From UHGV virus genome UHGV-0124752: a stretch of DNA of 29,426 nt, one strand, 5' to 3'. This DNA comes from a virus. Of this stretch, positions 1,712-27,600 are shown piece by piece. A program made the position numbers and the translations under genes. Each line of letters opens with the position of its first letter. The first letter of the stretch is position 1. The notes beneath the pieces were generated by a model. That model saw only the letters and a program-made list of their open reading frames with translations, was not told the DNA's origin and did not search any database.

Positions 1712-2884
1712 TTACGCGCTGACCTGGCTGGAGAAATTCACCAGGTACTGATCGGTGATGCGCTGACGCAGCATCAGGTTTTCAAGTGGCGGCACTGGCG
1801 TGTAGTCGTAGTCGATGGTAAGCTTCCCGTCTTTCAGAGTATCTTTGTCGTTCACCGACTCATCCAGCCAGCAATCACCACCAATGAGATAGCCCTGACT
1901 GACCAGGCTGCGCATTTTGGCGCGGATACCTTCGATAATGTCGCGGGCCAGCGACGGGTTCAGCGGTTTGTCCACCGCCCACATATGCGCTTCTGCCATT
2001 GTGTCCATAAGTACTTGCGCCGTGCGGGTGTAGTTTTCGAAGGCAAAGAGCGGGTCATCACTCAGGCAGCGGGAACCCCAGAAGCGGAAACCGTCTTTGC
2101 GGATAAGGGTGGTGACGTCGTTCTGGTTCAGCAGTCCCGCATCTGTTGCCGTGTCCTGCAGATCCCAGAACACATCAGCAGAAATTCCGGTGACACCGTT
2201 AACGCCCACGTTGGACAGGCTTTTGTGCCATCCGGTCTGCTCATCAATTTTGGCGCGCAGACCAAGCGCACGGGCGGTGGCATAAGCCGTTGCTTCGGCA
2301 TTCAGCACCGTGTCCCAGCCAGTAAAGTCGGGCCAGATCAGCATTCCTTCACGCTGACTGAAGTTTTCACGGTAAGTGATCGCCTCCTGCACTGTCTTGC
2401 AGCCATACGCTGACAGGTAAGCAAACCCACGCAGGCTTTGCGCCACGCTCAGCAACTCAGTAGCAACGGCTTTGTTATCGTGGCCTGGCACGCCGAGAAT
2501 GCGCGGTTTAACGCCGAGCTGTGACTGTGCAGATAACAGAGCTTTCATGCCTGTTTTTTTACCTTCAGCAGTCACTGCGCCGATGATATTGGTCGTGGTT
2601 TCTTCTTCCGTTTCACCCTGCGGCACACGCACAACAACGGTCACGGGTTTTGCCTGGTCAGCGATGGCATCCAGCGAACGGGCCAGCGTGCCGGACTCAC
2701 CCGCTTTACCGCTGGCAGTCAGCACATCAGTGATCAGCACGGGTTTATTAAGAGGAAACATTTTTGCATCGGCATCATCGCCCGTGCAGACCATACCCAC
2801 GATGGCGGTGCTCACCGTGGTAATGGATCGGGTGCCTTCGTTGATTTCAACAACGCGCACCCCGTGGTGGTAATCCTGAGCCAT
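1712..2884 (-). CDS. FI: Contractile tail sheath protein
   Basis: 390-aa ORF, first gene of the tail operon and preceded by a late-promoter box; size and position match P2 FI. Confidence 0.9.
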
Positions 2885-2960
2885 AGCGGCGAACCTCCTG
2901 ATTGGATTAGGCTTCGCCCTATGTTGAAGTGATTGTGCCTGACAAACAGCTAAGCGCAGT

Positions 2961-2978
2961 TGTGTCGTTATTCACACA
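2961..2978 (-). promoter_or_regulatory. Late-promoter activator box TGT-N12-ACA upstream of FI
   Basis: Exact tgt gtcgttattcac aca about 85 bp upstream of the FI ATG, matching the Ogr/Delta/B-type element of P2/186/P4 late promoters (centred near -55). Confidence 0.5.
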
Positions 2979-3026
2979 AAATGACGGTATTTGCCTACTT
3001 GCAGGGATAATCAAAATAATGCTGAT

Positions 3027-3599
3027 TCAGGGGGATTCATTGCTCTTATTTGCCGGAAATTTTCTATAAATGGTAGAAATGCCCACATCAAAAATCAGTG
3101 CAATACGCTGTCTTGATTCTCCGGCCTCTAGTAAACGTCCAATCTGTGCCCACTGTTCGGTGGTCAACTTAGGACGGCGTCCACCTACTCTGCCTTTGTC
3201 GCGAGCTGCAGCAATCCCCGCCCTGGTACGTTCAACTATCAGTTCGCGTTCCATTTCAGCCAGGGCACCCATGACATGAAAAAAGAAACGGCCCATTGGG
3301 GTACTGGTATCAATACTGTCAGTCAGGCTTCGGAAATTCACGCCACGCTGGCGCAACTCTTCTATCAGCGTAACAAGATGCCGCATACTGCGTCCCAACC
3401 TGTCCAGCTTCCAGACAACCAGCGTGTCACCTGCCGATAGTGTCCTGAGTAGTTTTTTCAGCCCCGGTCTGTCGGACTTAGTGCCACTGATTTTGTCCTC
3501 AAAAATCCGCTCACATCCCGCACAGTTCAGTGCATTGCGTTGCAAATCGGTGTTCTGGTCATTTGTTGACACGCGTACATAGCCAATAAGCATGATCAT
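3027..3599 (-). CDS. Serine DNA invertase, Gin/Pin/Cin/Hin family
   Basis: N-terminus MLIGYVRVSTNDQNTDLQRNAL with catalytic Ser, TLVVWKLDRLGRS and GRFFFHVMGALAEMERELI motifs, C-terminal HTH. True start is probably the third Met (3593). Lies next to an inverted-repeat crossover site. Confidence 0.9.
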   Translation of the reverse strand: MIMLIGYVRVSTNDQNTDLQRNALNCAGCERIFEDKISGTKSDRPGLKKLLRTLSAGDTLVVWKLDRLGRSMRHLVTLIEELRQRGVNFRSLTDSIDTSTPMGRFFFHVMGALAEMERELIVERTRAGIAAARDKGRVGGRRPKLTTEQWAQIGRLLEAGESRQRIALIFDVGISTIYRKFPANKSNESP

Positions 3600-3648
3600 C
3601 CCCCTGAATAAAAACCGGAGATGATGCCAGTTAGCCGTTATCTCTGCA

Positions 3649-3674
3649 TTTTCATAAACGTTGGTTTGGGAGAA
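3649..3674. other. Invertase crossover site 1 (26 bp, gix/hix-like)
   Basis: ttttcataaacgttggtttgggagaa; its reverse complement TTCTCCCAAACCAACGTTTATGAAAA shares 14 identical leading bases with site 2 in inverted orientation. Confidence 0.75.
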
Positions 3675-4022
3675 GCGGCGAAAAGGGATGTAGGCACAGG
3701 AGAAAATCAGATACCGGATATGTCAGCCTGGAAAAGAAATCCGAGTTCTAATCGCTGGAGAAAATTGCCTGATGGAACCATCATTCAAATGGGAATATCA
3801 GCATCAGGGCCATTAGGCTCACCTGTAAATATCACCCTGCCGATATCTTTCAGCAATACCAATTATTGTGTTGTTGCATCGTACGATAATGCACGGTCAG
3901 GTGTGTCAACAATGGTTAGTTTTGCAGCGTTACCTGTTTCACCATCGCAATTTTCCCTAATGTCATCTGTGACTGAGCAAGGAATAAATCCTTTTGCTTA
4001 CTGGATTGCTTTTGGAGATTAA
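3663..4022 (+). CDS. Alternative tail-fibre C-terminal cassette, silent in the present orientation
   Basis: Frame opens at the crossover site with GLGEAAKRDVGTGENQ...; inversion would fuse it in frame to the constant part of H. The ORF-track start at 3621 lies outside the segment and is not a real start. Confidence 0.65.
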   Translation, partial: GLGEAAKRDVGTGENQIPDMSAWKRNPSSNRWRKLPDGTIIQMGISASGPLGSPVNITLPISFSNTNYCVVASYDNARSGVSTMVSFAALPVSPSQFSLMSSVTEQGINPFAYWIAFGD

Positions 4023-4025
4023 TAA

Positions 4026-4439
4026 ATGGACAGATACTTCTATTCACAAAAAGAAAATGGTTTTTTTACCGATTTAAATAAAGCACCTTCAGATGCTGTT
4101 GAGATAACCACGGATGAATGGCTGTTACTACTGGATGGTCAGGATAATGGCATGAAAATAGTCAGCAATCAGGAGGGATATCCGGTTTTGACAGAGCAAC
4201 CACCTTTATCAAAAGAAAACCTTATTGCATTGGCGGATTTGAAAAAAAGAAAACTTATTAATGAAGCCAACGAGCACATGAACAACAGACAATGGCCTGG
4301 TAAAGCGGCTATTGGTCGTCTGAAAAGTGAGGAACTGGCGCAATATAATTTGTGGCTGGATTATCTGGACGCACTGGAACTGGTCGATACTTCCGGTGCG
4401 CCAGATATTGAATGGCCTACGCCTCCGGTGGTGGAGTAA
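4026..4439 (+). CDS. Tail fibre assembly chaperone paired with the alternative cassette
   Basis: 137 aa; N-terminus MDRYFYSQKENGFF and C-terminus LVDTSGAPDIEWPTPPVVE are typical of enterobacterial Tfa proteins; starts 3 bp after the alternative cassette. Confidence 0.8.
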   Translation: MDRYFYSQKENGFFTDLNKAPSDAVEITTDEWLLLLDGQDNGMKIVSNQEGYPVLTEQPPLSKENLIALADLKKRKLINEANEHMNNRQWPGKAAIGRLKSEELAQYNLWLDYLDALELVDTSGAPDIEWPTPPVVE

Positions 4440-4575
4440 ATTCGCCGCTACTGTATGTATAGCCCGGCTGTGTGTCAGCAGGGCATTCAACCCAGATTAA
4501 CGAGTCATGATATCTACCCGTTGGGTCTATATCAGTTAACTCCATTACCACGTTGTTTTCAATTCGTGCCCACAT
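4417..4575 (-). CDS. Short ORF (52 aa) downstream of H; possible chaperone for the current fibre
   Basis: ATG 11 bp after the H stop; MWARIENNVVMELTDIDPTGRYHDSLIWVECPADTQPGYTYSSGEFTPPPEA. Below the ORF-track length cutoff. Its 3' end overlaps the plus-strand Tfa 3' end. Confidence 0.35.
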   Translation of the reverse strand: MWARIENNVVMELTDIDPTGRYHDSLIWVECPADTQPGYTYSSGEFTPPPEA

Positions 4576-4585
4576 AATTTATACC

Positions 4586-6268
4586 TCACCAATAAATAAT
4601 TACAATCCCGCTATGACCAGCACCAGTAACTCCGCCAATCTTTTTCGTTGCCAACCCAGCGCCACCACCGCCAGGACCTTTTGCATTACTGCCAACATTC
4701 CCCGCCGAATCTAAAACCTGTCCATGCCCGCCAGGACCACCACCGCTACCTCCGACAGCCGAATCAGTGCCTGCTATCATTGATGCACCAGGAGAGCCAG
4801 GGCCAAGAGACGTATTTATCTGCCCCCCCACACCTTTTCCCCCCGCTCCTCCGGATACCTGCCCCCCACCGTCTCCACCTGTTGCCGAGAGATATGCGCC
4901 AAAACTACTGGTGCCGCCAGGATTTCCATTTCTTGCTGACGTATTTTGACTTTCGCCACCACTGCCTACAGTGATTGTGACGGTGTCAATACCTGTTAAG
5001 TCAATGACGGACTCGCTCACACCACCGCCGCCACCGCCGCCGCCACCGGCAGCGTTCGTTAAGCTTATCGACGGGTAACCGCCAGACCCGCCACCGCCGA
5101 TAACCTTCACCCTGACGCGTCGGCCCTTTTTCACTATGTCAGGAACATTCCAGGTGCTGACGCCTGCATTATCAAATACAGCGCAATTTTGAGCGCCAAA
5201 TGTTGCTTCTCCCAAACCAAGGTATGTGAGAAGACCAGCTACATCCTTTCCACTCAAATTAGTCAGCGTATTGTCCAGCGGTTGTTTACCTGCTAGCGCA
5301 TTAAGCATTGTCGTGGCAAAGTTCGGGTCATTCCCCAGCGCCGCCGCCAGTTCGTTCAATGTATCCAGTGCCGCAGGTGCAGAACCCACCATTCCTGCAA
5401 TCGCCGATTGCACAAAAGCCGTAGTGGCAATCTGTGTATTGTTGACCGACTGTGCCGCAGTAGGTGCTGTTGGCGTTCCGGTAAGTGCCGGACTCGACAG
5501 CGGCGCTTTCAGTGCCAGCGCATTATTAATAGTGGTACTGAATTTCGGGTCATTGTTAATGGCTGCGGCAATTTCTTTCAGTGTGTCCAGCGTGGCTGGC
5601 GCACCGTTAATCAGAGCAGTAATAGCGGCCTGAACAAACTCTGTGGTCGCAATCCGAGTGGTGTTATTTCCTGCTGCAGGCGTCGGCGCTTTTGGTTCTC
5701 CGGTAAATGTCGGATTATGTTTCTGCGCATACTGGGTATGAGGATCTTGTGCGGCAATGTGGTTTCTCATCTGGTCATCCACATACAGCTTTAATTCCAG
5801 GACTTTATCATCCACGTATTTACGGGTTGCCAGCACTACAGCAGGGTCGATTTTCAGGATGATATTGTCCGTGCTGCTGGTAATCAGCACCATGCGCACG
5901 GTCTGGGTACGCCCGCTGCCTTCAGCCAGTTGCGGCTTATAGCTTTCCGGGCAGTTTCCCACGGCAATCAATGCCCCGGACTCATCAAACAGGCCCACTT
6001 CACGTATCCACCAACCGCCCTCGTTTTCAGGGATCACCTGTTCAGCAATAATCTGGCTACTGTTCTGCGGGTCGATATAAAGCATATTCAACGCAGCCCG
6101 GCGTTTCTCATTTACCAGTGCCGTCTGCTTTGCGTCCGGCGTCGGTAATACTCCGCCGCCATCGCCGACCGCCATATGGGTAATTTTTAGCGGCACACCG
6201 AGCGCGGCGGCGCTGGCAAGTTTCGCCGCGCCAATATCCGTCAGCAGGGTATAAAATTTTGTGCTCAT
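4586..6268 (-). CDS. H: Tail fibre protein: constant N-terminal part fused to the currently expressed variable C-terminus
   Basis: 560 aa; N-terminus MSTKFYTLLTDIGAAKLASAAALG matches the P2 H family; crossover site encodes LTYLGLGE at about residue 346; C-terminal part is glycine-rich. Confidence 0.9.
   Translation of the reverse strand: MSTKFYTLLTDIGAAKLASAAALGVPLKITHMAVGDGGGVLPTPDAKQTALVNEKRRAALNMLYIDPQNSSQIIAEQVIPENEGGWWIREVGLFDESGALIAVGNCPESYKPQLAEGSGRTQTVRMVLITSSTDNIILKIDPAVVLATRKYVDDKVLELKLYVDDQMRNHIAAQDPHTQYAQKHNPTFTGEPKAPTPAAGNNTTRIATTEFVQAAITALINGAPATLDTLKEIAAAINNDPKFSTTINNALALKAPLSSPALTGTPTAPTAAQSVNNTQIATTAFVQSAIAGMVGSAPAALDTLNELAAALGNDPNFATTMLNALAGKQPLDNTLTNLSGKDVAGLLTYLGLGEATFGAQNCAVFDNAGVSTWNVPDIVKKGRRVRVKVIGGGGSGGYPSISLTNAAGGGGGGGGGVSESVIDLTGIDTVTITVGSGGESQNTSARNGNPGGTSSFGAYLSATGGDGGGQVSGGAGGKGVGGQINTSLGPGSPGASMIAGTDSAVGGSGGGPGGHGQVLDSAGNVGSNAKGPGGGGAGLATKKIGGVTGAGHSGIVIIYW
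5021..5050. repeat. GGC/GGT codon repeat encoding a poly-glycine run in the fibre tip
   Basis: accaccgccgccaccgccgccgccaccggc on the plus strand; the minus strand encodes AAGGGGGGGGG. Confidence 0.6.
5207..5232. other. Invertase crossover site 2 (26 bp), inside H
   Basis: ttctcccaaaccaaggtatgtgagaa, an inverted copy of site 1 (14 of 26 bases identical from the conserved end). Confidence 0.75.
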
Positions 6269-6870
6269 GGATTCACTCTCATTGTGTCAATAACATGGAC
6301 CGCCCCGCCTTCATGCGCGGTGCCACCGGAAATAATTGTTTCGTTGATATACGGATAGATCGTGATTTCTTCGCCAAGATAGCTGGCGGCTCCCACCCAA
6401 TGCGGGCCGCTGGTCTGCAGATTGATGGACATGCCGATCATGTGACGGCTACATGGTTTGGCATCGCTTATCAGTCGCTCAAGTTCCAGATAGGTATCTT
6501 CAGTGATGCCCTGGTCCTGCACGCCGATATCCAGGCGAAACGTGCCCGGTGCCTCTCCGGTCTGCCACCACTCAATAATGCGGATCAGAAAGCCGAACGG
6601 CTCCACCACCCGCCGCACGGCACTGGTGGTCCCTTTATGCTGATGAATATAAAAAGCATCCTTCACCACCTGGCGCTTGACGCTTTCTGTCCAGCCCTCG
6701 TCCCAGCGATCCACAGAGAACGCCCAGGCGAGATAAGGCAGGAAACTGACCGGACAGGTTGCCGGATTCCACAAGTCACGAAGCGGCACCTGCAGATCAG
6801 AAATCCCGCTGCAGGTTTGCGCCAGTCGGCGCTCCAGTGGTGTTGAACCCGGTGGCAGCAGACTATTCAT
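6265..6870 (-). CDS. I: Baseplate assembly protein I
   Basis: 201-aa ORF between J and H; position matches P2 gpI. Confidence 0.8.
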   Translation of the reverse strand: MNSLLPPGSTPLERRLAQTCSGISDLQVPLRDLWNPATCPVSFLPYLAWAFSVDRWDEGWTESVKRQVVKDAFYIHQHKGTTSAVRRVVEPFGFLIRIIEWWQTGEAPGTFRLDIGVQDQGITEDTYLELERLISDAKPCSRHMIGMSINLQTSGPHWVGAASYLGEEITIYPYINETIISGGTAHEGGAVHVIDTMRVNP

Positions 6871-7771
6871 CCGTTCCTCCGTTGGTTACGCTCCACTGCG
6901 TACATGATGCCGCCTGTGTTTTGTTCAGGACCACATCCGCCAGAGGAGAAGCCAGCTCCACACGCTGCACACCCTCAACATGCAGGGCGGCAAAGATGGC
7001 GCTACGGCGAATATCCCGACCAAGACGCGTCTGACTGGCGATGTACTTCTGCAGGCTGGCTTTTGCCGCTGCCATTACCGGCTCTGCTTCCGGTCCCGGA
7101 TAGAGAAAAATGGTGGCTTCCACGCGATACGGGATGATTTCTGCGCTGCGAACCGTAAGACGGTCAGCCACCGGGCGGACGTTCTCACTGTTCAGAGCTT
7201 TTTCCACCACGTCCAGCAGGTCTTTTTCTGCAGTTCCATCGCCTTCGCGGCTAAGGACAGTCAGTACCACCTCTGCAGGTGCCGGGCTGGTTGCACTGGC
7301 ATCCGCCACCCGACCGTCGGCGCTTCGGGCATGAAATTCATAAGCTGCAGTTGGCCCCGCAACTGAAAGCCCTTCAAAGGCTGCAGGCACACGCAGGCGT
7401 AACGCTTCATCGCTTTCCATCACAGCTGCAACGGGCGGCACAGCGTCATTATCAGCAGGCGTCACCGTCAGGCGTTTCACGTTGTAGTTGGCAGCGAGCT
7501 GGTCAAGATCGCTGCCCATCGCGTAAGCCACCATCACAGCCTGCGCGGCTTCGTTAATGCGCTGGCGCAGAAGCAACTCACGGTAAGCGTTCTCCTGCAG
7601 CAATTTGGTGACGGGTTCAGATTCCAGTTCCAGCGTGCGGATCACTGCTTCCTGCTCATCTTTCGGATGAAGCGCAACAAATTCGGCCTTGCGTTCGGCA
7701 AGCAGCGTCTCAAAGTCCGGCACATCCACAATCTGCGGCGCAGGCAACTGCGAAAGGTCAATCACTGCCAT
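6863..7771 (-). CDS. J: Baseplate assembly protein J
   Basis: P2 gpJ-like (MAVIDLSQLPAPQIVDVPDFETLLAERKA...); start placed at the internal Met to match the homolog N-terminus. ORF track gives 6863..7810. Confidence 0.8.
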   Translation of the reverse strand: MAVIDLSQLPAPQIVDVPDFETLLAERKAEFVALHPKDEQEAVIRTLELESEPVTKLLQENAYRELLLRQRINEAAQAVMVAYAMGSDLDQLAANYNVKRLTVTPADNDAVPPVAAVMESDEALRLRVPAAFEGLSVAGPTAAYEFHARSADGRVADASATSPAPAEVVLTVLSREGDGTAEKDLLDVVEKALNSENVRPVADRLTVRSAEIIPYRVEATIFLYPGPEAEPVMAAAKASLQKYIASQTRLGRDIRRSAIFAALHVEGVQRVELASPLADVVLNKTQAASCTQWSVTNGGTDE

Positions 7772-17559: not shown

Positions 17560-18306
17560 TTAGTTTCTATAATTAGAAATATAGTCATCCATTTTAGCCT
17601 GCTCTATGATTCCACTATTTTTAATATACAAAACATTTGCCCAATCAAAATACTCACAAAGAATAACAATCATAGTCAAAAGCTTTTCATCAGTCATATT
17701 TATTAACAGCTCATATTGCTCAGCTTTTTTTTCACTTTCAACTTTATCATCTATCAACTTCACCAAAAGATAAAATCTTCTTACCAAAGAGAAAAAATGA
17801 TCATCAACATCTAAACTTTCCAACCATGCAATGATTCTTTTCTTTTCTATTCCAGCTCTAACCAAGATGCTCAAGTTATCATCAATGAAAGTTATAGCAT
17901 TATTAGATCTATACTCAATAAGTGTAGGTTCTTTGGTCCCCCCCCCTTTACTTTCATCATCATTATCTGCTCCATTACCGATTACAATACGCAATTTATT
18001 ATAATTAGAATCTTGAGATTCAATTAGACAGAAAAACCTCACTTCAAATTTTTTGTAATCTTCAAGTAACTCTTGTCTTTTTATCTCTTGTTTCAATGTT
18101 GAGTTAGACTGCACTTGTAAAGTTACAGAGCGAATCAGCAGGCAAATCGAGATAAAACTTAGTATAGGATTCAGGACCCCACCCATGAAGTCCCCAAATT
18201 GCCCCCAAACATCAGCATCTTGAGTACTTAAGTACCAGGGGCCAAACTTAATACAATAAACCCCCAAAACTATTATTATGAGAGCTAAACAAATTATTTT
18301 TAACAT
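17560..18306 (-). CDS. Cargo protein, unknown function: two N-terminal transmembrane helices plus a cytoplasmic domain
   Basis: 248 aa; hydrophobic helices LKIICLALIIIVLGVYCI and GGVLNPILSFISICLLI; AT-rich codon usage unlike the phage core; start 1 nt after the upstream gene's stop. Confidence 0.7.
   Translation of the reverse strand: MLKIICLALIIIVLGVYCIKFGPWYLSTQDADVWGQFGDFMGGVLNPILSFISICLLIRSVTLQVQSNSTLKQEIKRQELLEDYKKFEVRFFCLIESQDSNYNKLRIVIGNGADNDDESKGGGTKEPTLIEYRSNNAITFIDDNLSILVRAGIEKKRIIAWLESLDVDDHFFSLVRRFYLLVKLIDDKVESEKKAEQYELLINMTDEKLLTMIVILCEYFDWANVLYIKNSGIIEQAKMDDYISNYRN
17938..17946. repeat. Homopolymeric C9 tract (G9 on the coding strand) inside the membrane-protein gene
   Basis: ctttggt ccccccccc tttac; the minus strand reads aaa ggg ggg ggg acc, encoding KGGGT in frame. 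Confidence 0.8.
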
Positions 18307-18307
18307 C

Positions 18308-19126
18308 TTACTGCACCGTATGCACTAAATATTTCACAGTTTCCCCACTGTTAATTATTACCCGACTTACAGTCAGTTCAAGATAAATATAGCCAGCAGT
18401 GGAAGGCGGATTATTTACATGTAAGTTAGCCGAAATCATTCTTTTTTGAGCTGGAATGATGACACGTAAGGGGCTATAAAACCCAAATGCCACCGTATCA
18501 TTTTCGCCCTCAAGAACAAGCCTACCATTGCCAGTGCGAGCATTAAATCTTGTAATATAAGCCCTGATTACTTCAGTCTTTTTTAAAACACGTGATGTGA
18601 ATAAATTTGTTGCAGTAGATGTATCTAATTCAATTACTTTTTTCTTATCATGGGCACGCTGTTTAAAATTTAACTCGATATTATAGTTTTTTTTGAGATT
18701 AATTTCATGCATTCTTTTTAGAGGAGCTCGAATACGACCTATCAACTCATCCTCAATATCCGATAAACCTTTAACTACTTCTTCCGCTTCATTGGAAAGT
18801 TCGCGACTCTCTAAATATAATGATTGCGAAATAAAGAAACTCATCACTTCATTAAATACTGGTTTAGATATTTTGCGAAGTTCTGATACCAGTTCAGCAT
18901 CATTAATAACCAAGTCAAAATTTTGACCATAAGAACCGGTGAAATTCCTCTTGAGTACAGCCCTTGCAGGATTTACATGAGAGCGGCGCTTTATTATTAC
19001 TTTCCTAAGTATAGCCTCCGCCAACAAGCAAGTAACCTCTGCAGTTCCTGCAAGCGTGTCGAGACCGTATTCCATATCTACTTCATCATCGCCGCTTTTG
19101 ATAATAACATCGTAATTAACTCGCAT
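18308..19126 (-). CDS. Cargo protein, unknown function (soluble, 272 aa), first gene of a two-gene operon
   Basis: AT-rich ORF with RBS aaggaaag ahead of the ATG; I recognise no family motif. Confidence 0.7.
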   Translation of the reverse strand: MRVNYDVIIKSGDDEVDMEYGLDTLAGTAEVTCLLAEAILRKVIIKRRSHVNPARAVLKRNFTGSYGQNFDLVINDAELVSELRKISKPVFNEVMSFFISQSLYLESRELSNEAEEVVKGLSDIEDELIGRIRAPLKRMHEINLKKNYNIELNFKQRAHDKKKVIELDTSTATNLFTSRVLKKTEVIRAYITRFNARTGNGRLVLEGENDTVAFGFYSPLRVIIPAQKRMISANLHVNNPPSTAGYIYLELTVSRVIINSGETVKYLVHTVQ

Positions 19127-26257: not shown

Positions 26258-26268
26258 GGTTGCTTCAT

Positions 26269-27600
26269 ATGAATAATGATATGACTTTTGAAAACAGAGA
26301 TGAGTATAATAGAAAAATCATTGCTGAAAAAATAATAAGCTTACTCGAGTCCCCCTTAAAAATATCCCCTATTGTTATCGATGGGGACTGGGGTACCGGT
26401 AAAACCGAATTTTCAAAAAAATTAGCGGCATTGATTGAAAAAAATGAATCTGGGCATAAAGTAGTATATATTGATGCATTTACTGAAGATCATAATGATG
26501 CTCCCATACTTACTATAATGGCTGCAATAGTTGCATTATATCCAGAGAGTGAAAAGAAGGAATTAATATCAAAGGCATTACCAGCATTGAGATTTGGACT
26601 TAAAACTGTACTCAAAGCTGGCGCTGGGTGGATTTTAAAACAAAATGCAGATGATATTGCGGATGAATTCGAAGATGCTATTAAAGATGCGGCTAACTCA
26701 GCTATAGATGGTACTGTAGAAGCACTGCTTGATGATCATATTGAAGCAAAGAAACATTTGCTTGCTCTCAAGGAAGTACTTGCTGAACTAACTAGCGAAA
26801 ATAAAATAACAATTATCATTGACGAACTTGACCGTTGTAAACCAAGCTTTGCCATCTCTATCATCGAAAATATAAAACATGTTTTTGACACTGAAAATCT
26901 TAACTTCTTGTTAGTTGCTAACATCTCACAATTGAAAGCATCAATAAATCATATTTACGGTGCAGGTGTTGACTCAGAAAGATATCTTGATAAATTTATA
27001 AAATTCACTTACAGCCTGCCAGTGACTTTCACTGAAAACAATTACGATAAAATTTTGGCTTCGAACTCTCATTTTAGAATGCTATGTAACGAGTCTGAAA
27101 GACTAAAAGAAATTGGAGAAAGTAGTATTCATATAGTTCAAAAATTTATCGAACTAAAAGGCTTGTCGCTACGGGAAGTTGAAACCTTATCAAGATATCT
27201 AGAAATTTATCAAATTTTATCTCAAAATGAAATCAGCAATAAATTTATACCAGGCTATTGCTGTTATCGAACCCTTGCAGTAATTCTTTATTCGTTTGGT
27301 CGTGAACTGGCCCTTAACTACGTAGAAGATAAAATAGATGCACAATTAATAATTAATTTCTTCGGTGTTAATAGACTCCCATATCAGACAGATCAATATA
27401 ACATCAACATCTACTATTATGCATTATTTGGTATAACTTATAAATATATGCCAGAAGGTTCTCCTTTACTTCCTTCTGAAAACGATGAAAAAAACAGATG
27501 GGCTGAAATAAGTGATTATCATATTTTAAAAGGAAATGCAGGTGTAGAAGACCCTGTTAGAATATTCAAAAACACCTTAAAAGTTTTCTTGCTCCAATGA
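26269..27600 (+). CDS. KAP-family P-loop NTPase
   Basis: Walker A IDGDWGTGKTEF and Walker B IIIDELDRC; AT-rich. ORF track starts at a TTG (26260); ATG 26269 has an RBS. Confidence 0.8.
   Translation: MNNDMTFENRDEYNRKIIAEKIISLLESPLKISPIVIDGDWGTGKTEFSKKLAALIEKNESGHKVVYIDAFTEDHNDAPILTIMAAIVALYPESEKKELISKALPALRFGLKTVLKAGAGWILKQNADDIADEFEDAIKDAANSAIDGTVEALLDDHIEAKKHLLALKEVLAELTSENKITIIIDELDRCKPSFAISIIENIKHVFDTENLNFLLVANISQLKASINHIYGAGVDSERYLDKFIKFTYSLPVTFTENNYDKILASNSHFRMLCNESERLKEIGESSIHIVQKFIELKGLSLREVETLSRYLEIYQILSQNEISNKFIPGYCCYRTLAVILYSFGRELALNYVEDKIDAQLIINFFGVNRLPYQTDQYNINIYYYALFGITYKYMPEGSPLLPSENDEKNRWAEISDYHILKGNAGVEDPVRIFKNTLKVFLLQ

What the first reader, a model, noticed from the sequence alone, without database searches (positions are those of the whole stretch)
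3649..5232. Gin/Pin-type invertible tail-fibre segment with sequence-defined crossover sites
Two 26-bp sites in inverted orientation share an identical 14-bp half (TTCTCCCAAACCAA) and flank 1.56 kb containing the current fibre C-terminus on the minus strand and an alternative C-terminus plus chaperone on the plus strand, with a serine invertase next door. The identical half encodes GLGE in both cassettes and the frames match across the crossover centre, so inversion would swap a roughly 214-aa glycine-rich tip for a roughly 120-aa different tip. This is a Mu G-segment-like host-range switch carried on a P2-type fibre.
Basis: seen in the sequence. Interest (0 to 1): 0.55.

Follow-up and report, generated by a model that had tools for sequence, protein, structure and literature searches.

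The report
Pin-type invertible tail-fibre switch, P2-like prophage
This is a real but ordinary phage host-range switch: a DNA invertase flips a 1.56-kb segment so that an E. coli P2-like prophage puts one of two different tips on its tail fibre, and a near-identical prophage in another E. coli genome carries the segment in the flipped state.

Summary
Two 26-bp sites (3649-3674 and 5207-5232) lie in inverted orientation and share an exact 16-nt core. A 190-aa serine invertase gene sits next to them, and both cassettes stay in frame through a shared GLGE motif.

The left site is 26/26 identical to the pinE-proximal site of the E. coli e14 P segment. The invertase is 84% identical to PinE, 74% to Mu Gin and 77.5% to P1 Cin. 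It keeps the catalytic serine and the residues that mark Fis/enhancer-dependent invertases.

An E. coli genome (NZ_CP172871) carries the same segment, 99.7% identical, in the opposite orientation. Its breakpoints fall inside the shared core. Its annotated 469-aa fibre matches my in-silico inversion product, and the swapped tip is identical. I saw no reads from the source strain, so switching there is inferred.

Inversion in P2-like prophage fibre loci has already been shown experimentally in EPEC E2348/69. This is therefore a new member of a known kind.

One addition: the active glycine-rich tip models like the cyanophage Pam3 fibre gp24. It is followed by an unannotated 52-aa ORF (4417-4575, minus strand) that models as only the fibre-binding N-terminal domain of the Pam3 chaperone gp25. 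Each orientation therefore carries its own chaperone.

The parts
3027..3599 (-). Pin-family serine DNA invertase. The ORF is 190 aa; RefSeq homologues start at the Met at 3593, giving 188 aa.
   Evidence: Pfam Resolvase 8e-53 plus HTH_7 2e-14. PHROG 125 'DNA invertase' 7e-101. Mu Gin structure 3UJ3 at E 4e-93. 83.7% identical to e14 PinE. Catalytic S11, R9, the D-R-L-G-R motif, helix-B K48/K49/R52 and Fis-contact residues Q152/R155/L156 are all present (residue roles from PMC3798978).
3649..3674 (.). Invertase-proximal 26-bp crossover site (pix-like), with the central dinucleotide at 3661-3662.
   Evidence: It is 26/26 identical to the pinE-proximal site of e14. Its centre lies 68 nt from the invertase start codon, against 67 nt for gixR-gin in Mu.
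5207..5232 (.). Distal 26-bp crossover site inside the fibre gene, with the central dinucleotide at 5219-5220.
   Evidence: The inner half TTCTCCCAAACC plus AA is identical to the left site. The outer half GGTATGTGAGAA matches the left site's outer half at 8 of 12 positions.
3661..5220 (.). Invertible segment, 1560 bp.
   Evidence: The same segment, 99.74% identical over 1563 nt, lies inverted in E. coli NZ_CP172871. The breakpoints map to window 3658-3676 and 5205-5220.
5221..6268 (-). Constant N-terminal part of the tail fibre (P2 gpH-like), outside the segment.
   Evidence: Pfam Phage_tail_fib 1e-63. 51% identical to P2 gpH over 373 columns.
4586..5218 (-). Currently expressed variable tip: a glycine-rich domain, 206 aa after GLGE.
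   Evidence: Pfam Gly_rich_2 1e-10. AlphaFold model with pLDDT 92.4. Foldseek hits to Pam3 fibre gp24 (7ypx_A, E 5e-8, TM 0.65), Bxb1 tail tip chains and ALK/LTK glycine-rich domains.
4417..4575 (-). Unannotated 52-aa ORF 10 nt downstream of the glycine-rich fibre gene: a putative single-domain fibre chaperone.
3663..4025 (+). Silent alternative tip cassette: gp53-like C-terminal domain, 116 aa after GLGE. An ATG at 3621 makes it look like a 133-aa ORF.
   Evidence: Pfam Gp53-like_C 2e-13. It is fused to the fibre constant part in 13 E. coli genomes. In L005 the fused tip is identical to the one predicted here.
4026..4439 (+). Tail-fibre assembly protein (137 aa) that serves the silent cassette.
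   Evidence: Pfam Caudo_TAP 6e-25. PHROG 188 at 2e-49. 53% identical to e14 TfaP. Its 3' end overlaps the 52-aa ORF tail to tail by 23 nt.

Best explanation
This is a Pin/Gin-type site-specific inversion switch for the tail-fibre tip of a P2/186-like prophage of E. coli.

Mechanism, inferred from the Hin/Gin paradigm: dimers of the 190-aa serine invertase bind the two 26-bp sites. They synapse, probably with Fis bound to an enhancer in the 5' part of the invertase gene. They cut both sites at the central AA/TT dinucleotide, rotate by 180 degrees and religate. This flips 1560 bp.

Consequence, shown by the sequence: the fibre gene's first ~350 codons lie outside the segment and are transcribed with the V-W-J-I-H operon. 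In the orientation seen here they continue in frame into a glycine-rich tip, followed by a 52-aa mini-chaperone. After inversion they continue into a gp53-like tip, followed by a 137-aa Tfa chaperone. Each virion population would therefore carry one of two receptor-binding tips. The host-range effect is inferred, not shown.
For: - Sites and frames.
- Improbability by chance.
- Invertase family and key residues.
- Left site identical to the e14 pix site, and core identical to the published e14 repeats (PMC12529663).
- Same layout as the Mu G segment.
- Natural inverted copy: NZ_CP172871 matches both in-silico junctions at 100% coverage and 98% identity. The breakpoints fall inside the shared core. 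Its annotated fibre is 469 aa and 463/469 identical to the predicted product, with all six differences in the constant part. Its silent glycine-rich cassette and 52-aa ORF are intact.
- The gp53-like cassette occurs both next to the invertase and fused to the fibre across many E. coli genomes.
- Inversion in P2-like prophage fibre loci was shown by sequencing and PCR in EPEC E2348/69 (PMC4272514).
Against: - No reads from the source strain were available, so switching in this strain is not shown.
- The enhancer was not identified. A degenerate Fis-motif scan gave only one match shared with Mu gin, at gene position +70.
- The outer half-sites differ at 4 of 12 positions. This is usual for this family but could lower efficiency.
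- No promoter for the invertase was identified.
Confidence: 0.9

Rival explanations
1. Fossil switch. The sites and invertase are relics, and the segment is now locked in the glycine-rich orientation in this lineage. On this reading, the orientation difference between genomes reflects an old event.
For: Three of the four copies of this exact cassette pair have the same orientation: the window, H1 and H2. The enhancer could not be confirmed. In H1 the neighbouring tape-measure and sheath genes are pseudogenes, which shows that such prophages decay.
Against: The invertase ORF is intact and has every catalytic and Fis-contact residue. Both sites are intact, and one is identical to a site known to work in e14. 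The inverted copy differs from the window's segment by only 4 of 1563 nt, so the flip is recent. The silent cassettes are intact in both orientations.
Confidence: 0.07
2. The opposite orientation in NZ_CP172871 arose by homologous recombination or cassette exchange between prophages, not by site-specific inversion.
For: The segment is 99.7% identical between the two genomes while the flanks are only 96.3-96.5% identical. This suggests the segment, or the flanks, were exchanged horizontally.
Against: The breakpoints fall within the 16-19 nt shared core of the two sites. That is too short for efficient RecA recombination and is exactly where the invertase cuts. Exchange of the cassettes does not by itself explain a clean flip with both junctions in frame.
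Confidence: 0.02
3. Host-domesticated defence switch of the e14 PinQ/StfE2 type. Here the 133-aa ORF at 3621-4022 (a short leader from the invertase-proximal side plus a gp53-like domain) is expressed alone and blocks adsorption of other phages. In that case the inversion would regulate this protein as well as virion host range.
For: The ORF has the same architecture as e14 StfE2. Its leader MMPVSRYLCIFINVGLGE compares with e14 MPFACYFFIFINVGLGE, and both carry a gp53-like C-terminal domain (PMC12529663). RefSeq annotates it as a gene.
Against: No sigma-70-like promoter on the + strand was found upstream of 3621. The prophage otherwise looks complete, with a full P2-like structural, replication and lysogeny set, so the ordinary virion function is sufficient. 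The tip is only 40% identical to that of e14 StfP.
Confidence: 0.05
4. A chance inverted repeat next to an unrelated recombinase.
For: A 14-mer with up to 3 mismatches is expected about 3 times in the window by chance.
Against: The exact 16-nt inverted repeat is rare in random sequence (0.3%). The sequence is identical to a known pix site. The frames match. A natural inverted copy exists.
Confidence: 0

Closest known systems
e14 P segment with PinE (E. coli K-12 cryptic prophage)
   Same: The invertase is 83.7% identical. The invertase-proximal 26-bp site is identical (26/26), and the core TTCTCCCAAACCAA is shared by both sites. The crossover lies in a GLGE-coding stretch. There are convergent tip-plus-Tfa cassettes whose 3' ends overlap tail to tail. 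One of the tips is gp53-like.
   Different: e14 is a defective lambdoid remnant with a truncated side-tail-fibre gene. Here the switch sits in an apparently complete P2-like tail module. One cassette is a glycine-rich tip with a 52-aa partner in place of a second Tfa-served tip.
Mu G segment with Gin (and P1 C segment with Cin)
   Same: The gene logic is the same: Sc constant part, then Sv-U and U'-S'v in opposite orientation, then the invertase downstream on the same strand. Site-to-invertase spacing is 67 nt in Mu and 68 nt here. The invertase is 74% identical to Gin and 77.5% to Cin.
   Different: The Mu segment is 3 kb with perfect 34-bp repeats and a TC/GA core dinucleotide. Here the segment is 1.56 kb with a 16-nt perfect core and an AA core as in hix. 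The fibre constant part is P2 gpH-like, not Mu S.
Invertible tail-fibre loci of P2-like prophages in EPEC E2348/69 (Goldberg et al. 2014, PMC4272514)
   Same: Same phage type and same kind of switch. Both orientations were shown to coexist in clonal cultures by sequencing and PCR.
   Different: I did not compare the sequences directly. One EPEC locus has three repeats and four variants, whereas this window has only two sites.
Cyanophage Pam3 fibre gp24 with chaperone gp25 (PDB 7YPX; PMC9608196)
   Different: gp25 is 162 aa and has a C-terminal helical trimerisation domain (residues 64-162) that the 52-aa ORF lacks. Sequence identity is only 24-26%. Pam3 has no inversion system.

Membership tests
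Fis/enhancer-dependent DNA invertases (Hin/Gin/Cin/Pin) | A small serine recombinase of about 190 aa, with an N-terminal catalytic domain and a C-terminal HTH | tested here: met
   Resolvase 8e-53 plus HTH_7 2e-14. Aligned end to end with the Gin structure 3UJ3 at E 4e-93.
Fis/enhancer-dependent DNA invertases (Hin/Gin/Cin/Pin) | Catalytic serine and conserved active-site arginines | tested here: met
   S11 (equivalent to Hin S10), R9, R44 (equivalent to Hin R43) and D66-R67...R70 are present.
Fis/enhancer-dependent DNA invertases (Hin/Gin/Cin/Pin) | Residues that distinguish invertases from resolvases: basic helix-B residues 47/48/51 and Fis-contact residues Q151/R154/L155 (Hin numbering, PMC3798978) | tested here: met
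   K48, K49, R52, Q152, R155 and L156 are present. The numbering offset of +1 was checked against the 1HCR alignment.
Fis/enhancer-dependent DNA invertases (Hin/Gin/Cin/Pin) | Two 26-bp imperfectly palindromic sites in inverted orientation with identical central dinucleotides | tested here: met
   All four half-sites fit TTnTCnnAnACC-like half-sites of hix, gix and pix. The core is AA in both sites.
Fis/enhancer-dependent DNA invertases (Hin/Gin/Cin/Pin) | A recombinational enhancer in cis with two Fis sites, normally in the 5' part of the invertase gene | tested here: inconclusive
   A degenerate Fis-motif scan found one match at gene position +70 that is shared with Mu gin, but no convincing pair of sites. 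The spacing from site to gene is conserved with Mu.
Fis/enhancer-dependent DNA invertases (Hin/Gin/Cin/Pin) | The segment is actually found in both orientations | tested here: met
   This is shown between genomes, not within one culture. NZ_CP172871 carries the inverted form with its breakpoints inside the sites.
Mu G / P1 C / e14 P-type invertible tail-fibre segments | The constant N-terminal fibre part lies outside, alternative C-termini lie in opposite orientation inside, and the reading frame is kept across the crossover | tested here: met
   In-silico inversion yields a 469-aa ORF that is 463/469 identical to a real annotated protein.
Mu G / P1 C / e14 P-type invertible tail-fibre segments | Each variable part is followed by its own assembly protein | tested here: met
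   The gp53-like tip is followed by a Caudo_TAP protein. The glycine-rich tip is followed by a 52-aa chaperone-domain ORF. The second is atypically short.
Mu G / P1 C / e14 P-type invertible tail-fibre segments | Inversion changes host range or adsorption | not testable with these tools
   This needs adsorption or plaque assays with phage locked in each orientation.
P2-like (Peduoviridae) tail module | gpH-type fibre N-terminus, with V-W-J-I-H followed by FI-FII-E-T | tested here: met
   51% identity to P2 gpH. RefSeq annotation of near-identical loci gives the gene order. gpA, CI repressor, integrase, terminase and portal are also in the window.
Multiple-inversion systems (p15B Min, shufflon-like EPEC locus) | Three or more crossover sites that give more than two variants | tested here: not met
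   Only two exact sites are present. The single 3-mismatch match at 4006-4019 is within chance expectation (3 found, 2.97 expected).

The most novel reading that the evidence does not exclude
The glycine-rich tip, which resembles Pam3 gp24 and the ALK glycine-rich domain, is assembled with a 52-aa single-domain chaperone. This chaperone consists only of the client-binding beta-sandwich and lacks the helical DUF4376-type trimerisation domain found in most of its relatives. That would make it a minimal tail-fibre chaperone. It travels with the tip as a two-gene cassette that can plug into invertible segments and into unrelated baseplates.
Probability: 0.45. Interest if true: 0.4.

Novelty: new member of a known kind. 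Interest (0 to 1): 0.22.

Why it matters
The finding shows that reading raw sequence can correctly spot a DNA-inversion host-range switch. The switch itself is textbook biology (Mu G, P1 C, e14 P) and has already been demonstrated in P2-like prophages of E. coli.

Practical value is modest. It explains why RefSeq annotates an orphan 'gp53-like' or 'glycine-rich domain' gene next to the invertase in thousands of E. coli genomes. It also flags an unannotated 52-aa gene that appears to be a minimal chaperone for glycine-rich fibre tips. That gene could be useful when engineering receptor-binding tips onto P2-type phages or tailocins.

Tried and rejected
- Extra crossover sites (a Min or shufflon-like system): none beyond chance.
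- Fis-site scan of the invertase 5' region against Mu gin: inconclusive.
- Sequence search of both tips against the PDB: nothing useful. The only hit came from the fibre shaft, to Bxb1 gp4.
- NCBIfam and PHROGs for the 52-aa ORF: no hit. Pfam also gave none.
- Promoter and terminator scan: no convincing promoter for the invertase or for the silent 133-aa ORF.
- Literature search for PF21722: zero papers. One search failed on a term that was too short.
- P1 record AJ000741: it held only cin and the left repeat, so I did not use it further.
- Chance repeat: rejected.
- Homologous-recombination origin of the flipped copy: rejected as the main explanation, because the breakpoints lie in a 16-19 nt core.
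Full report
**Observation.** The repeat finder reports one outstanding inverted repeat in 2500-7000. Its arms are 3649-3676 and 5205-5232 (28 nt, 86% complementary). Written as 26-bp sites, the right one is TTCTCCCAAACC-AA-GGTATGTGAGAA (5207-5232). The left one, read on the other strand, is TTCTCCCAAACC-AA-CGTTTATGAAAA (3649-3674). The exact shared stretch is 16 nt, and the central dinucleotide is AA in both. The identical halves face the inside of the segment. An exact 16-nt inverted repeat appeared in 0.3% of random sequences of the same size and composition. The 14-mer occurs exactly twice in the window.

The identical half encodes GLGE in the 560-aa minus-strand fibre ORF (4586-6268; GLGE is aa 351-354) and in the plus-strand ORF 3621-4022. 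Inverting 3662-5219 in silico keeps the frame and produces a 469-aa fibre.

**Anatomy.**
- ORF 3027-3599 (minus) is a 190-aa serine recombinase with Resolvase and HTH_7 domains (PHROG 'DNA invertase').
- The fibre has a P2 gpH-type N-terminus (Phage_tail_fib; 51% identical to P2 gpH over the first 354 aa) and a Gly_rich_2 C-terminus.
- The silent plus-strand cassette is a Gp53-like_C tip followed by a 137-aa Caudo_TAP assembly protein at 4026-4439.
- RefSeq annotation of near-identical E. coli loci shows the surrounding order V, W, J, I, fibre, [segment], invertase, sheath, tube, E, tape measure.
- The rest of the window holds gpA, Dam, CI repressor, integrase, terminase and portal.

So the window is a P2/186-like prophage of E. 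coli. The best database matches are 99.5% and 98.5% identical over 3.5 kb.

**The invertase and its sites.** The protein aligns end to end with Mu Gin (PDB 3UJ3, E 4e-93). It is 74% identical to Gin and 77.5% to P1 Cin, and 83.7% to e14 PinE. It has the catalytic serine (S11, equivalent to Hin S10) and the active-site arginines. It has the basic helix-B residues K48/K49/R52 and the Fis-contact residues Q152/R155/L156. McLean et al. (PMC3798978) report these as conserved in Fis/enhancer-dependent invertases but not in resolvases.

The left site is 26/26 identical to the pinE-proximal site of e14. The shared core equals the e14 P-segment repeats quoted in PMC12529663. The distance from the site centre to the invertase start is 68 nt, against 67 nt in Mu. 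I could not identify the Fis enhancer: a degenerate motif scan gave only one position shared with Mu gin. That feature stays inconclusive.

**Is the segment ever found flipped?** I searched 5,426 complete E. coli genomes with the two junctions that inversion would create. NZ_CP172871 matches both over their full 801 nt at 98% identity.

Pairwise BLAST of that locus against the window gives three blocks:
- the left flank up to window 3676;
- the segment, reversed, from 5220 to 3658, at 99.74% identity;
- the right flank from 5205.

The breakpoints therefore lie inside the shared 16-19 nt core. Its annotated fibre is 469 aa and is 463/469 identical to my in-silico product. All six differences are in the constant part. 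The now-silent glycine-rich cassette (209/210 aa identical) and the 52-aa ORF are intact.

The gp53-like cassette is fused to the fibre in 13 genomes and sits next to the invertase in many of the genomes listed. This is direct comparative evidence for inversion at the predicted sites. It is not evidence for switching inside the source strain, which needs reads or PCR.

**What is known.** Invertible fibre segments are classical (Mu G/Gin, P1 C/Cin, e14 P/Pin). The Mu record shows the same layout. For P2-like prophages specifically, Goldberg et al. 2014 (PMC4272514) detected coexisting orientations in two P2-like prophages of EPEC E2348/69 and confirmed them by PCR. One of these had two variants, and one had three repeats and four variants. 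The window has only two sites. The finding is therefore a correct identification of a new member of a known kind.

Ten nucleotides after the glycine-rich fibre's stop codon lies a 52-aa ORF (4417-4575, minus). It overlaps the 3' end of the opposite-strand Tfa gene by 23 nt. It has no Pfam, PHROG or NCBIfam hit and is not annotated in the RefSeq loci.

It nevertheless has 14 homologous clusters of 50-84 aa, with 17 invariant columns. In the three relatives whose contigs I looked at, the gene directly follows a Gly_rich_2 fibre gene. One is another invertible P2-like locus, L008, with its own diverged sites. Another, L011/L012, has a different baseplate and no invertase called in the locus. Against the L008 copy, 12 synonymous and 12 non-synonymous codon differences occur in 46 codons.

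[quoted passage not shown] Residues 64-162 form a helical trimerisation domain (PMC9608196). A profile search found 712 representatives in which this domain is always N-terminal. Most are 100-215 aa, and about 19 of the best 150 are 70 aa or shorter. Five of ten long relatives tested have a C-terminal DUF4376 match at E <= 0.001, two of them above Pfam's cut-off. The 52-aa ORF is thus a domain-only member of a fibre-chaperone family, and each orientation of the switch brings its own chaperone. That it functions as a chaperone without the trimerisation domain is inferred, not shown.

**Mechanism.**
- Shown by sequence and comparison: the sites, the invertase family, frame conservation, the cassette contents, and a natural inverted copy.
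- Inferred from the Hin/Gin paradigm: Fis/enhancer-dependent synapsis, cleavage at the AA/TT core, 180-degree subunit rotation, transcription from the late operon upstream so that only the in-frame cassette and its chaperone are expressed, and a change of receptor specificity.

**Rivals.**
- A fossil switch is unlikely, given the intact parts and a flipped copy that differs at only 4 of 1563 nt.
- A homologous-recombination origin does not fit breakpoints within a 16-19 nt core. The contrast between 99.7% identity in the segment and 96.4% in the flanks does suggest that cassettes are also exchanged horizontally.
- An StfE2-like defence role for the 133-aa ORF 3621-4022 is conceivable, because its architecture parallels e14 StfE2 (PMC12529663). 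No promoter was found, however.

**Verdict.** This is a new member of a known kind, of low to moderate interest. The mini-chaperone is the only mildly new element.

Noticed in passing
window 4417-4575 (-): An unannotated 52-aa ORF lies after the glycine-rich fibre gene. It is a domain-only relative of Pam3 gp25 and DUF4376-type tail-fibre chaperones. RefSeq does not annotate it in three near-identical E. coli loci.
   Followed up: yes
window 4417-4439: The 52-aa ORF and the opposite-strand Tfa gene overlap tail to tail by 23 nt. Comparable overlaps of 29 nt occur in L008 (5137-5165) and between tfaP and tfaE in e14 (L013 2518-2546). The overlap may mark a conserved joint for cassette exchange.
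   Followed up: partly
window 3658-5220 versus L005 2342-3904: The invertible segment is 99.74% identical between the window and NZ_CP172871, but both flanks are only 96.3-96.5% identical. This suggests that the segment, or the flanks, moved horizontally between related prophages.
   Followed up: no
window 3621-4022 (+): The silent cassette reads as a 133-aa ORF because of an ATG in the invertase-segment spacer. Its leader (MMPVSRYLCIFINVGLGE) parallels e14 StfE (MPFACYFFIFINVGLGE). This is the architecture of StfE2, which is reported to block T2 adsorption (PMC12529663). RefSeq names it 'gp53-like domain-containing protein' or 'phage tail protein'.
   Followed up: partly
window 26260-27600 (+): A 446-aa KAP-family P-loop NTPase lies between the CI repressor and the integrase. 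It matches the PADLOC candidate defence family PDC-S20 at E 1e-171, and more weakly PifA and QatA. It is probably prophage cargo for anti-phage defence.
   Followed up: partly
window 17560-19126 (-): Two adjacent ORFs of 248 and 272 aa with no Pfam hit lie next to the portal gene. This is the position of a known P2 cargo hotspot (from my own knowledge). The only signal is a weak ZorB/MotB-like match (E 3e-4) for the first ORF.
   Followed up: partly
L008 4352-4379 / 6222-6249: A metagenomic P2-like locus carries its own invertible segment with diverged sites (CAAAAACCTTGGTTTAGGAG type). It contains a 370-aa Gly_rich_2 fibre plus a 54-aa ORF, opposite a 198-aa Tfa, with an invertase next door.
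   Followed up: partly
NZ_CP060065 (hit H30): A related E. coli locus has an IS1A insertion and three Tfa genes under the match. It may be a more complex or disrupted version of the switch.
   Followed up: no
L001 551-2985 (NZ_OY754392): In the closest relative of the window (99.5% identical), the tape-measure and sheath genes are annotated as fused partial pseudogenes. That copy of the prophage therefore has a deletion in its tail module, while the switch itself is intact.
   Followed up: no
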